Assembly (NCBI RefSeq): GCF_009914755.1
Contig: NC_060947.1
Source: the human T2T-CHM13v2.0 reference genome, Homo sapiens
DNA length: 64,000 nucleotides
Direction: 5' to 3' (one strand)
Shown here: positions 9,283 to 13,354 of the stretch, one piece after another
How positions within the stretch are numbered: position 1 is the stretch's first letter
How the letters are laid out: each line of letters starts with the position of its first letter
Made by a program: the position numbers and the translations under genes
Notes under the pieces: model-generated
The model's input: only the letters and a program-made list of their open reading frames with translations
Database searches by the model: none
Told to the model about the DNA's origin: nothing

Positions 9283-9372
9283 AGAACTTGTGAGATGAAA
9301 CTGAAGCACTATGATGAAAGTTTCTTATTTTATATATATCTACCAGAAAATTAAAAAGATTAAAAATTGGCC

Positions 9373-11402
9373 TATCTTGATTTTATAATCTGATGTTTTC
9401 AAAAACTATTTTTCACCATGGCCACTGCTTCTCAAACTGGGGAACCCTAGCCATCTTCCAGGAGTGTCATTTTTTTTTTTCAGACATAGAAGTTTAAAAA
9501 TTTTTTAATCTTAAAAAGTCCTGTTGTATATATTCACAGGTAAAATAAGAATAATTTTAAAGATAAAACATATGACTTCAAAGAAATTACAAGTTGACAT
9601 CTTGGACTCTACCCCTCGTACTTTATCTCCTATGAGGAGAATTTCAGTAATTACAGCTGCGAAGCAATGACCTAGGAGATCCTGATTTCTCAAAGCGTAG
9701 CCAGATCTTTACTGACAGTGAATGTAAATACAATTCAAAGTCTTGGTGCATTCTCCTGAGTTCCATCTTCAGATATAATGTAATTCTCTGATTAAATATA
9801 TATAGTCCTGTCTATACTGATCAGGAATTAAGTCAACAAAAGAACTCTGGACTGATTTTGATTTTTCACTGTTTATAATTAGAGGAATGCTACAGTTAAA
9901 GATTACTGCTTTACAACTAAAAATATACAACATATATCATCAAAGGGAGTGGAACTCATGAAGCCAAAAGATTAAAACTTGACCCAGTGAAAATAATAGG
10001 GAGAGTAACTGTGGGTGATTTTATCCTTCTTCCAAATTTACATTAAAATATATTATCCCTATTCTTTACTGCCCTTTTGGTTGAAGAGGTAAATACATGC
10101 ATTTTTCTGAATAATTAATTATAACACCTCCTCTAGAATCCCAAATCCACTAGGGATTCTTTCTTGACCCCAAAGAGATGCTTTCAGTATGTCATGAGTA
10201 TAAACTCAAGCTGCTTGCCAATTATAACTACTTGTCAAATAGAAAGTCAATAGCCACTTTCTGTATAAATAACATTTATAAAAAACAAAATGAAGTTGCA
10301 AATGAAATTATGTCAAATTTACAGTTTCTTTTTTTAAACAAAGGGTCAATGTCATCAACATTATCTGTAAATCAAGTTATCATCAGATACATTTAATAAT
10401 CAATGCCTGTAATCCCAGCACTTTGGGAGGCTGAGGCAGGTGAATCACCTGAGGTCAGGAGTTCAAGACCAGCCTGGCCAACATAGTGAAACCCCGTCTC
10501 TACTAAAAACACAAAAATTAGCCGGGCATGGTGGCTGGCGCCTGTAATTCCAGCTACTCAGAAGGCTGAGGCAGGGAGAATTGCTTGAACCCAGGAGTGG
10601 AGGTTGCAGTGAGCTGAGATCATGCCACTGCACTCCAGCCTAGGCGACAGAGCGAGACTCCACCTCAAAAAATAAAATAAAATCAAGATAACCTCTTGAA
10701 TGCAATAGCTCATAGCACTTTAATTTGGCAAGCCATTTTTCCTGTTTTATTATAAATCTATATTAGATGTTTGAATATGGTTTGAAATATTTCACTACTG
10801 TGCTGAAAAAGATTGGTTGATAGCAGCTTGGAGTGCTAACTGGAAGATCAAAATCATGTCTCTTGCTGATAACCTAAGAGCATTAAGCTCTGAGTCCAGT
10901 GAGGTCATAGCAGTGTATGCTCCTTGCCCTTACGGAGTGTCTGTTTTTAGAAATTTAGATTTTAAAAGGCGTGGGACATACGACCAGGCCCTATAGCCAC
11001 ATAAATATAAATTTCATAGAAAAAGAATAAAAGCGGAGATATATTTTTTGACACAGAGGCACCCAAAGAAATACAAACATTGCCTAGCTGCTGCCATTTC
11101 TGTAACTGCCCAGAAGGGTGACAGATTTCTGAAGGGGAAAGGATTCAGATATGACCTTTTCTTTAGTCCCAACCACTAGTTTTAACAAATGTGAATTATT
11201 GAAATGTGAAGGGACAAAAAGAATCATACATTTAAACTGTCTTGTTCAGCATACCAATATTGTATGTTACAAATCATCATTTCTAAATCTGGATTGATTC
11301 TGTTGTGTTTTTGACTGTTTCTAAAGTAAGTGTGTATAAAAGTTGTCTCCTTTTTAAAAAGATCATATTTTTAAATAAAGCATTTTTTGTAGAAAAAAAA
11401 AA
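9373..11402 (+). pseudogene. Processed retrocopy of an unidentified mRNA 3'UTR with 5' inversion (inverted 9373-~10402; forward ~10403-11402)
   Basis: TSD aaaaattggcc at 9362-9372 and 11398-11408; AATAAA at 11374-11379 then poly(A) at 11393-11402; the host L1M rejoins across it; the internal Alu's TSD is split between orientations. Confidence 0.85.
10403..10677 (+). mobile_element. AluS carried inside the retrocopy; first ~18 nt missing at the inversion junction
   Basis: Starts atgcctgtaatcccagc; the tail is followed by ataaaatcaagata (10677-10690), whose reverse complement is at 9373-9386. Confidence 0.9.
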
Positions 11403-13354
11403 TTGGCCATATAAGTTTGCACCTCAGGACATACAAAAGTGAAAACTACCAAAGCCAAAATTTGCTTCTTTGAAAGATTAACACAATTGATAAATTTAGC
11501 AAGCTCAATCAAGGAGGAGAAAGAAAACACAGATTATCAATGCCATAAATGAGAAAAGAAACATCATTACAAATCTTACAGGCCTTAAAAGGATACTAAG
11601 AAAATATTATGACCAACTTTATCCCCCAACATTTGATAACCAAAATGAAATGAACAGTCTTAGAAAAACAGAAATTACCAGAAATGTCACAAGAAAAAAA
11701 GGTCAAAATCTTAGTAGTATTTCTATCTATTAAAGAAATTGAACTTATAATTTAAAACCTATCCACAAACAAAGCTCTCAACCCACATGGCTTCATTGGT
11801 GAACTCTGGTCTTTTAGAGAAGAAATAATACCAATATTATTCATGTTCTTTTGAAGGAAATAAAGAGAGAATACTTCATATCTCATATGATAGTAAATTG
11901 AACTATATTAGAATAAAGAATTACTCTTCTTTGAAAGACATCATTAAGAAAGTTAATAGGGAAGCCACAAGCTGGGAGAAGATATTTGCAATACATATAT
12001 TTGACAAATGACTTTATATTCAGAATATATAAAGAACTCTCACAAATCAATAGAGAAAAAAATAGATAAAAGACACAGGCACTTGAAAAAAGAGGTATTC
12101 AAATGGGCATTATATATATGAGAAGGTGCTAAAGATCATTACTCATCAGAGAAATGTAAATTAAAACCACAATGTGGCAGCCCTACACACATACATACAT
12201 ACAAAAAAAAGGGCTAAAATTTAAGACTGACAATTATCAAATGTTGATGAGTATTTAGAGCAACTGGAATTCACATTCATTGATGGTAGGAGTGTAAATT
12301 CTTTCAACCACTTTGGAAGATAGGCATTACCTACTAACACTAAATGTACACCAATTCTGTGGCCCAGTAGTGCCACTCCTAGGCATATATTTAAGAGAAA
12401 CAAGCAAATATATTCACTAAAAGAAATGTACAAGAATGCTCATACCAGCTTTAGCGTAATTGCTCAAAATTTGAAACCACTCAAATGTCCATCAGTGGGA
12501 GAATAGATGAGCATTATGCTATATTCTTGCAATGTGATACTACACAACAATGAAAAGAATGAACTGCTGTTACAAGAACTTGGGCGAACCTCAAAAAATT
12601 TGTTGAACAAAAGAAGCCAGACATGCAAATGGGTATATGCTATATGATTCAATTTACATAAAGTTCAAGCAAGGACAAGCAAAACTAATCTATGATTGTG
12701 ATAATATTGATAAGTGATTGGCAATCTATGGTCAGAATGGTGGTTACCGCTGAGAGTCAATTATTGACAGGAAAGGGCCACCAGAGAACTTTCTGGGATA
12801 ATTAAAATGTTTTCTACTTTCATCTGAGTTGTGGTTACATGGGTGTATACATATGAGTATTGGAGTTCAGCTTTATAGCTAAGATCTATACTATATAGCT
12901 TTGCATACATTCATTGAGCTTTACAGTTAATATCTACACTTTACTATATATAAATTATACCTCAATAAAAAATAATTAGCCTGTGAGATTATTCCTCAGG
13001 TATGTTTATATAGAATTGGTATTGGTTGATCATTGGATCATATGTGCAATCCACAAGTGTGCCTATTTTACCACATTTATGCCAACACTCAGCATCGTTC
13101 AGATTTCTTATCTTGTGGCCAATATAATGGATGTAAAGTGGTATTGTGTTATCTTCCCCCCTTTCTAGTATCTGCTGTCCATTTAGGTTTCCCCTTTGTT
13201 AATTGCTTGTTCCTATTTTGTCTCATGTACTTTTCATAGAGGCTTTTTTCCCACTAAGATGCACTAGCTAGGGGTACCATTTCTGTCTTCAGGATATCTG
13301 TTCTAATAGTAATTAACTTAAAGGGGTCTTCCATTTGGAACACTTAAGGTTTTT

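What the first reader, a model, noticed from the sequence alone, without database searches (positions are those of the whole stretch)
9362..11408. Hidden twin-primed retrocopy of a cellular mRNA 3'UTR, broken at the head of an Alu it carried
Seen: a ~2 kb block with no L1 similarity interrupts an old L1M. It is flanked by an 11-bp TSD (aaaaattggcc at 9362-9372 and 11398-11408) and ends in AATAAA (11374-11379), 13 nt, then poly(A). The Alu at 10403 lacks its first ~18 nt. The sequence after its tail, ataaaatcaagata (10677-10690), recurs as an exact reverse complement at 9373-9386, abutting ggcc. Flipping 9373-10402 therefore rebuilds ...ataaaatcaagata-GGCC[Alu]An-ataaaatcaagata, an Alu with its own TSD inside the parent transcript. 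Established: L1 twin priming produces this 5' inversion with microhomology at the second priming site, here the target's ggcc against the Alu's first GGCC. Inference: this is a UTR-only processed pseudogene that postdates AluS. It has no ORF and is half inverted, so it is easily missed. It puts ~1 kb antisense and ~1 kb sense of another gene's 3'UTR into ZNF81 pre-mRNA. I cannot name the parent gene.
Basis: partly seen in the sequence, partly recalled or inferred. Interest (0 to 1): 0.8.

Follow-up and report, generated by a model that had tools for sequence, protein, structure and literature searches.

The report
Inverted CDC40 3'UTR retrocopy in ZNF81
A 2-kb block in an intron of the X-linked gene ZNF81 is a young, half-inverted retrocopy of the 3' untranslated region of the splicing-factor gene CDC40 on chromosome 6, made by the LINE-1 machinery; it is a neat but ordinary example of a known process.

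Summary
Window 9373-10402 (inverted) and 10403-11392 (direct) each have one near-identical match elsewhere in the genome. The two matches lie side by side on the + strand of chr6 (T2T 111408637-111410669). In the parent they are separated only by the first 18 nt of a complete Alu that carries its own target-site duplication.

The parent segment starts 57 nt after the stop codon of CDC40/PRP17. The exon upstream translates to PRP17 residues 521-579 at 59 of 59 identity. The segment ends 13-16 nt after AATAAA, where parent and copy part company.

The insert has an 11-nt target-site duplication, a TTTTT/AA LINE-1 endonuclease site and a 14-nt loss at the inversion junction. The target's GGCC lies against the Alu head. 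These are the marks of twin priming.

Divergence is 14 substitutions in 2011 nt (0.70%), so the insertion dates to about the human-chimpanzee split or later.

Corrections:
- The parent Alu head now reads GTCC, not GGCC.
- The poly(A) tail is very short.
- "Interrupts an old L1M" is shown only for the downstream flank.

Inverted processed pseudogenes are well documented, so interest is modest. No function is indicated.

The parts
9362..9372 (+). 5' copy of the 11-nt target-site duplication, AAAAATTGGCC. The bottom strand reads GGCCAATTTTT/AATC, a TTTT/AA-type LINE-1 endonuclease site.
   Evidence: (D5)
9369..9372 (+). GGCC at the 3' end of the target overhang. This is the putative second primer. 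It lies against the first four bases of the parent Alu (GTCC today).
   Evidence: the priming role is inferred
9373..10402 (-). Inverted half. It is the reverse complement of CDC40 3'UTR chr6:111408638-111409666, with 8 substitutions and one 1-nt indel in a T run.
9373..9386 (-). Left copy of the embedded Alu's own target-site duplication (ATAAAATCAAGATA), now inverted.
   Evidence: (I9)
10400..10403 (.). Inversion junction. Parent bases 111409671-111409684 (14 nt of the Alu head) are missing. There is at most 1 nt of microhomology, and one base (10401) is either a mismatch or filler.
10403..10676 (+). Alu carried inside the CDC40 3'UTR, lacking its first 18 nt, together with its A-rich tail. 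The tail has one extra AAAAT unit compared with the parent.
   Evidence: masked 10398-10692 in the hub table
10677..10690 (+). Right copy of the embedded Alu's target-site duplication.
10403..11395 (+). Direct half. It matches CDC40 3'UTR chr6:111409685-111410669, with 6 substitutions and two indels (5 nt and 3 nt).
11374..11379 (+). AATAAA polyadenylation signal of CDC40, in sense orientation relative to ZNF81.
11393..11402 (+). Run of 10 A. Three may be templated, five overlap the target-site duplication, and 2-7 are untemplated poly(A) tail.
11398..11408 (+). 3' copy of the target-site duplication, AAAAATTGGCC.

Best explanation
Window 9373-11397 (chrX:47,315,373-47,317,397 in T2T-CHM13) is a LINE-1-mediated retrocopy of the CDC40 (PRP17) mRNA 3'UTR, with its 5' half inverted by twin priming.

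Shown:
- The source is chr6:111408638-111410669, which lies within the last exon of CDC40.
- The two halves are adjacent in the source and in opposite orientations in the copy.
- 14 nt are lost between them.
- Homology ends at the cleavage site after AATAAA.
- The whole insert is flanked by an 11-nt duplication of a TTTTT/AA target.

Inferred sequence of events:
1. L1 ORF2p nicked the bottom strand at TTTTT/AATC.
2. The T-rich end primed on the CDC40 poly(A) tail. cDNA synthesis ran back about 990 nt, to position 19 of the Alu embedded in the UTR.
3. The top strand was cut 11 nt downstream. Its ...TTGGCC-3' end annealed to the Alu head (GGCC, or GUCC) in the same RNA.
4. That end primed a second cDNA running about 1030 nt further toward the 5' end, stopping 57 nt short of the stop codon.
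5. End joining fused the two cDNAs.

Divergence from the parent is 0.70%. This puts the event at roughly the human-chimpanzee split or later.

The insert is most likely a neutral intronic passenger in ZNF81 intron 4. Its one concrete consequence is technical. 432 of 601 (72%) 100-mers from the last 700 nt of the CDC40 3'UTR are identical in the ZNF81 intron, on the ZNF81 sense strand. Short 3'-end reads can therefore multi-map between the two genes.
For: - One parent locus. The direct half has 1 non-self match (chr6:111409968-111410666, 99%). The inverted half has 1 strong non-self match (chr6:111408640-111409666, 99%), plus an 80% fragment on chr4 and a 37-nt match elsewhere on chrX.
- Collinearity. 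BLAST of the window against the chr6 locus pairs window 9369-10403 with 111409670-111408637 (99.0%) and window 10403-11395 with 111409685-111410669 (98.6%).
- Parent Alu. The parent carries a full Alu flanked by ATAAAATCAAGATA on both sides. After the cleavage site the parent reads GTAGAAAGTGCT..., while the copy reads GTAGAAAAAAAAAATTGGCC.
- Parent gene. chr6:111408395-111408577 translates to PRP17 residues 521-579 with 59 of 59 identical to human PRP17 (E 7.7e-39 to 6qdv_o, the chain shown in the alignment; E 1.2e-38 to 5mqf_E). The preceding exon matches residues 472-520. This coding exon is single-copy in the genome.
- Repeat statistics. The target-site duplication occurs 2 times against 0.11 expected. 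The 14-mer occurs 2 times against 0 expected.
- Youth. There are 14 substitutions in 2011 aligned nt, 13 of them transitions, plus 3 small indels.
- The mechanism is established for processed pseudogenes. In Cooke 2014 (PMC3996531, passages read), 9 of 42 somatic pseudogenes carried one inversion, with 1-3 bp of microhomology at the 5' insertion point. PMC12016303 Table 1 gives a twin-priming rate of 13% among 23 polymorphic processed pseudogenes.
Against: - The untemplated poly(A) tail is only 2-7 A. Taken alone, the tail is thin evidence for an RNA intermediate.
- The whole copy comes from one exon. No lost intron proves splicing, so unspliced pre-mRNA or a read-through RNA ending at the same site would give the same product.
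- The parent Alu head is GTCC today. The 4-nt microhomology is perfect only if the G-to-T change came after the event. Otherwise there is a mismatch at the primer's penultimate base.
- I could not check that RefSeq or GENCODE place the CDC40 mRNA 3' end at this site.
- No empty site was seen. No primate genomes are held, and no recent paralogue of the flank exists.
Confidence: 0.93

Rival explanations
1. Orphan 3' transduction. A read-through transcript from an active L1 or SVA lying upstream in CDC40 ended at the CDC40 poly(A) site. It was inserted so heavily 5'-truncated that only unique downstream sequence remains.
For: The product would be indistinguishable in sequence, because the copy contains no splice junction.
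Against: The 10 kb upstream of the parent segment hold CDC40 exons. They contain no stop-to-stop frame longer than 145 aa, and 0 of the 4 longest frames hit any Pfam family. No young L1 is therefore evident there. The segment is the gene's own 3'UTR ending at its own AATAAA, so the mRNA is the simpler template. The check covers 10 kb only.
Confidence: 0.03
2. Two steps: an ordinary 5'-truncated CDC40 retrocopy was inserted, and its 5' half was inverted later by a DNA rearrangement.
For: It would give the same content. The 14-nt inverted repeat (9373-9386 and 10677-10690) exists now.
Against: One breakpoint would have to fall exactly at the boundary between the target-site duplication and the insert. 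The 14-nt inverted repeat is a result of the inversion, not a pre-existing substrate: in the parent the two copies are direct repeats. The 14-nt loss and the GGCC lying against the Alu head are what twin priming predicts.
Confidence: 0.03
3. DNA-level duplication of chr6 sequence into chrX (segmental duplication or repair patch), with no RNA intermediate.
For: The poly(A) tail is very short.
Against: Homology stops at a canonical cleavage position 13-16 nt after AATAAA. At least 2 A are untemplated. The flanks form an 11-nt duplication of a TTTTT/AA endonuclease site. The 5' limit lies inside the same exon.
Confidence: 0.01

Closest known systems
Twin-primed (5'-inverted) LINE-1 insertions (Ostertag and Kazazian 2001; paper not held; known from reference lists and the accounts)
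   Same: One target-site duplication around the whole insert. Direct 3' part ending in poly(A). Inverted 5' part whose source-3' end abuts the 5' duplication. The two parts are adjacent in the source with a small loss at the junction. Microhomology at the internal priming site.
   Different: The template is a cellular mRNA, not L1 RNA. The internal priming site is the head of an Alu embedded in the 3'UTR.
Processed pseudogenes with one internal inversion (Cooke et al. 2014, PMC3996531; PMC12016303)
   Same: Same machinery and the same hallmarks. [quoted passage not shown]
   Different: This one is a fixed or reference germline copy, not somatic. It holds no coding sequence, so protein-based pseudogene pipelines would not see it, and the RefSeq table supplied for this window lists nothing there.
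Orphan L1 3' transductions
   Same: Unique non-L1 sequence with a poly(A) tail and a target-site duplication, made by L1.
   Different: No source L1 is evident within 10 kb upstream of the parent segment. The sequence is a gene's own 3'UTR.
Parent genes of processed pseudogenes with 3'UTR-embedded Alus (Farre et al. 2016, PMC5199112; abstract read)
   Same: CDC40 has a sense Alu in its 3'UTR and gave rise to a retrocopy.
   Different: A single case says nothing about facilitation. CDC40 was not found in the 12 of 20 supplementary files that could be searched.

Membership tests
L1-mediated retrocopy / processed pseudogene | Target-site duplication flanking the insert | tested here: met
   11-nt AAAAATTGGCC on both sides, abutting the limits of homology to chr6.
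L1-mediated retrocopy / processed pseudogene | L1 endonuclease consensus (TTTT/A) at the first-strand nick | tested here: met
   The bottom strand at the 5' edge of the duplication reads TTTTT/AATC. The consensus is as quoted.
L1-mediated retrocopy / processed pseudogene | Ends in untemplated poly(A) at the mRNA cleavage site, downstream of a poly(A) signal | tested here: met
   AATAAA, then 13 nt, then A10. The parent continues GTAGAAAGTGCT. This is weak support: only 2-7 A are untemplated.
L1-mediated retrocopy / processed pseudogene | Introns of the parent are absent | not testable with these tools
   The copy derives from a single exon and starts 57 nt after the stop codon, so no junction is available.
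L1-mediated retrocopy / processed pseudogene | An intron-containing parent gene exists elsewhere | tested here: met
   Two chr6 exons match PRP17 residues 472-520 and 521-579, separated by about 1 kb of intron.
Twin priming | The 5' segment is inverted, the 3' segment is direct, and both lie within one target-site duplication | tested here: met
Twin priming | The segments are adjacent in the source, with a small deletion or duplication at the junction | tested here: met
   14 nt (111409671-111409684) are missing.
Twin priming | The source-3' end of the inverted segment abuts the 5' duplication, with microhomology between the target overhang and the RNA | tested here: met
   Target GGCC lies against parent GTCC: 3 of 4 bases match today, or 4 of 4 if the ancestral head was GGCC.
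Orphan L1 3' transduction | A full-length source L1 lies directly upstream of the transduced sequence at the parent locus | tested here: not met
   No frame longer than 145 aa and no Pfam hit in the 10 kb upstream. Only 10 kb were checked.
AluS (the embedded Alu) | Subfamily diagnostic positions | not tested
   No Alu consensus was available to a tool. By recalled diagnostic stretches it resembles AluS rather than AluY or AluJ.

The most novel reading that the evidence does not exclude
The insertion is human-specific and not neutral. It could act in either of two ways. Its sense-oriented CDC40 poly(A) signal could cause some premature termination of ZNF81 transcripts upstream of the zinc-finger exon. 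Alternatively, the 1-kb stretch antisense to the CDC40 3'UTR carried in ZNF81 pre-mRNA could pair with CDC40 mRNA (99% complementary over 1030 nt). That pairing would link an X-linked intellectual-disability gene to a core spliceosome factor through double-stranded RNA.
Probability: 0.04. Interest if true: 0.6.

Novelty: new member of a known kind. Interest (0 to 1): 0.3.

Why it matters
- The parent of an unannotated 2-kb block can now be named. It is a clean, base-resolved germline example of twin priming on a cellular mRNA, with the second primer landing on the head of an Alu embedded in the UTR.
- UTR-only, half-inverted retrocopies escape protein-based pseudogene pipelines.
- The near identity to the CDC40 3' end matters in practice. 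72% of 100-mers from the last 700 nt are identical in the copy, and they lie in sense orientation in a ZNF81 intron. This can cause multi-mapping or misassignment of 3'-tag and intron-counting RNA-seq reads between CDC40 and ZNF81.
- At 0.7% divergence the insert may be a human or human-chimpanzee lineage marker. This is not shown here.
- Nothing here would surprise a specialist.

Tried and rejected
- **Empty-site proxy from old L1 paralogues.** The 87-nt upstream flank gave no BLAST hit in 19 paralogous loci. Smith-Waterman scores against the 4 paralogues whose match begins nearest the insertion site were all within the shuffle range (195, 72, 258 and 33 of 300 shuffles reached the observed score). 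Continuity of an L1M across the insertion site is therefore not shown. The result is inconclusive, not negative.
- **Pfam on whole-frame translations of the flanks.** I then scanned 15 stop-to-stop frames one by one. Only 6757-7860 hit RVT_1. The 11 downstream frames gave nothing meaningful; there was one 15.7-bit Fungal_trans match, below the family cut-off.
- **Rfam on 9000-11800.** 0 matches at gathering thresholds.
- **Bacterial promoter and terminator scan.** 10 promoter-like sites against 8.6 expected, and 0 terminators. The scan is irrelevant to a human intron and I ignore it.
- **Papers not held.** Ostertag and Kazazian 2001 and Feng and Li 2021.
- **Literature on this specific insertion.**
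  - 'CDC40' + 'retrocopy': 0 papers.
  - 'CDC40' + 'pseudogene': 13 papers, 11 listed, none about a CDC40 retrocopy by title or abstract start.
  - A five-term search: none of the 20 listed papers held CDC40 or ZNF81.
  - 'ZNF81' + 'retrotransposon': 25 papers, 12 listed, none relevant by title.
  - These searches cover main text only. Pseudogene and retrocopy databases and supplementary tables could still list the copy.
- **Reverse direction of copying (chrX to chr6).** Rejected. The chr6 copy is contiguous with the coding exon, uninverted, and has the complete Alu.
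Full report
**Observation.**
- AAAAATTGGCC lies at 9362-9372 and 11398-11408. 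These are the only two copies in the window; 0.11 were expected, and 1 of 100 shuffles reached two.
- AATAAA lies at 11374-11379, followed by 13 nt and a run of 10 A.
- ATAAAATCAAGATA lies at 10677-10690, and its exact reverse complement at 9373-9386. These are the only two copies, with 0 expected.
- An Alu starts at 10403 without its head.

**Parent locus.** I searched the window's own genome with each half separately.
- The direct part (10691-11392) has one match besides itself: chr6 (contig C6) 111409968-111410666, + strand, 99%.
- The inverted part (9373-10402, given as its reverse complement) has one strong match besides itself: C6:111408640-111409666, + strand, 99%. It also has an 80% match of 350 nt on chr4 and a 37-nt match elsewhere on chrX.
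- A direct BLAST of window 9000-11800 against the chr6 locus pairs window 9369-10403 with 111409670-111408637 (99.0%) and window 10403-11395 with 111409685-111410669 (98.6%).

The two halves are therefore contiguous and collinear in the parent, and in opposite orientations in the window. Only 14 nt of the parent (111409671-111409684) are absent.

In the parent the gap falls in the head of a complete Alu. At the 3' end the parent reads AAATAAAGCATTTTTTGTAGAAAGTGCTATC..., while the copy reads ...GTAGAAAAAAAAAATTGGCC. Homology thus ends at a canonical cleavage position, and the A run is not templated beyond three bases.

**Parent gene.** In the 10 kb upstream on chr6, a stop-to-stop frame ends at 111408580.
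- The part of that frame at 111408395-111408577 (the last coding exon) is identical at 59 of 59 aligned residues to the C-terminus of human pre-mRNA-processing factor 17. It matches residues 521-579 of the 579-residue chain 5mqf_E (E 1.2e-38); the alignment shown was to 6qdv_o (E 7.7e-39).
- A frame about 1 kb further upstream matches residues 472-520.

The parent is therefore the last exon of CDC40 (PRP17). From stop codon to cleavage site the 3'UTR is 2089 nt. The copy lacks its first 57 nt and the 14 nt at the junction, and contains no coding sequence. The last coding exon is single-copy in the genome: of 28 candidates scored, the only other match is a 27%-identical WD40 protein on chr14. 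This is therefore the only CDC40-derived retrocopy detected, apart from the unexplained chr4 fragment.

**Mechanism.**
- The pre-insertion target reads ...AAGATT|AAAAATTGGCC|ATATAAG.... The bottom strand at the 5' edge of the duplication is TTTTT/AATC, the LINE-1 endonuclease consensus quoted in the papers read.
- The direct half ends in poly(A) next to the 3' duplication.
- The inverted half has its source-3' end, the base just before the Alu head, next to the 5' duplication.
- The last four bases of the target overhang (GGCC) lie against the first four bases of the Alu.

This is the twin-priming architecture. One cDNA is primed on the poly(A) tail. A second is primed internally by the 3' end of the top strand after second-strand cleavage. 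The two are then joined with a small loss.

Cooke et al. (PMC3996531, passages read) describe this for processed pseudogenes. In their data 9 of 42 had a single inversion, with 1-3 bp of microhomology at the 5' insertion point and 1-4 bp at the internal junction. PMC12016303 (passages and Table 1) reports twin priming at a rate of 13.0% among 23 polymorphic processed pseudogenes. Kazazian's review (PMC4151081) makes the same point. The order of events given above is inferred from the structure; the structure itself is shown.

**Points against, or that weaken the case.**
1. The parent Alu head reads GTCC today. The 4-nt match is perfect only if the parent changed after the event. Otherwise the primer had a mismatch at its penultimate base.
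2. The tail is very short. Of the 10 A, 3 may be templated and 5 belong to the duplication.
3. All of the copy comes from one exon, so there is no lost intron. Unspliced RNA, or a read-through RNA from an upstream L1, would give the same product. I found no frame longer than 145 aa in the 10 kb upstream, and none of the four longest frames hit any Pfam family. No young L1 is evident there, but only 10 kb were examined.
4. I could not see the annotation of CDC40's 3' end.
5. No empty site could be examined.

**Age.** The two loci differ at 14 of 2011 aligned positions: 0.70%, with a Poisson 95% interval of 0.38-1.17%. Thirteen of the differences are transitions. There are also three small indels: 1 nt in a T run, one AAAAT unit in the Alu tail, and 3 nt. 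One of the 14 substitutions (10401) sits at the junction and may be filler. Human-chimpanzee divergence is about 1.2% genome-wide and about 0.9% on the X; these figures are recalled and not from a call. Against them, the copy dates to about the split or somewhat later. The interval does not allow a decision between human-specific and shared with chimpanzee.

**Context.**
- The downstream flank from about 11427 is an old, very abundant repeat. There were 2713 first-look candidates; 40 were scored, and the 39 non-self matches were 68-84% identical. Read by eye, its translation resembles the L1 ORF2 region between the endonuclease and reverse-transcriptase domains. The motif is recalled and not tested.
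- The matches fall into two groups that break near window 11889.
- Upstream, 6757-7860 is a 368-aa open frame with an RVT_1 domain (E 6.2e-30). It belongs to a younger L1 whose 3' end and A tail reach about 9085.
- A 5'-truncated Alu follows at about 9100-9285.
- The 68 nt between that Alu and the insert could not be assigned.

"Interrupts an old L1M" is therefore plausible, but shown only on one side.

**Function.** Nothing indicates one.
- The hub's table lists no exon at 9362-11408. The block lies in intron 4 of NM_007137.5.
- Rfam finds nothing.
- The sense-oriented AATAAA lost the parent's downstream U/GU-rich sequence, so it should be a weaker site than in CDC40. This is inference.
- The concrete consequence is technical. 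937 of 1990 (47%) 100-mers from the whole CDC40 3'UTR, and 432 of 601 (72%) from its last 700 nt, are identical in the copy.

**Novelty.** The class is well known. I found nothing in print on this particular copy in four full-text searches. Pseudogene and retrogene databases and supplementary tables could not be checked, apart from 12 of the 20 files of one paper.

**Verdict.** The parent is named as CDC40. It is a new member of a known kind, of modest interest.

Noticed in passing
L005 1499-1849 (chr4, C4:79934020-79934368); matches window 9860-10209 on the - strand: A 350-nt stretch of chr4 is 80% identical to CDC40 3'UTR 111408829-111409180. The set has only three members in the genome: chr4, CDC40 and the chrX copy. 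No poly(A) tail or flanking duplication is evident at its ends. Its origin is unexplained.
   Followed up: partly
window 6757-7863 (+), extending to about 9085: A 368-aa stop-free frame with a reverse-transcriptase domain (RVT_1, E 6.2e-30). It belongs to a 5'-truncated L1 that is clearly younger than the repeat downstream of the insert, and it ends in an A-rich tail near 9060-9085.
   Followed up: partly
window about 9100-9285 (+): A 5'-truncated Alu (right half only) with a 25-nt A tail. It sits directly after the L1 tail and 68 nt before the CDC40 retrocopy. Three retroelement insertions therefore cluster within about 300 nt of target sequence.
   Followed up: no
window about 11889; also 8065-8783 against 11900-12596: Genomic matches to the downstream flank split into two groups at about 11889 (query up to 478 or from 481 onward). 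8065-8783 is 59% identical to 11900-12596. Two L1 fragments covering the same part of L1 therefore lie in the same orientation on either side of the insert.
   Followed up: partly
chr6 parent, C6:111409667-111409670: The Alu in the CDC40 3'UTR begins GTCC, not the usual GGCC. The usual Alu start is recalled, not from a call. Whether this change came before or after the retrocopy cannot be told from the copy, which lacks these bases.
   Followed up: no
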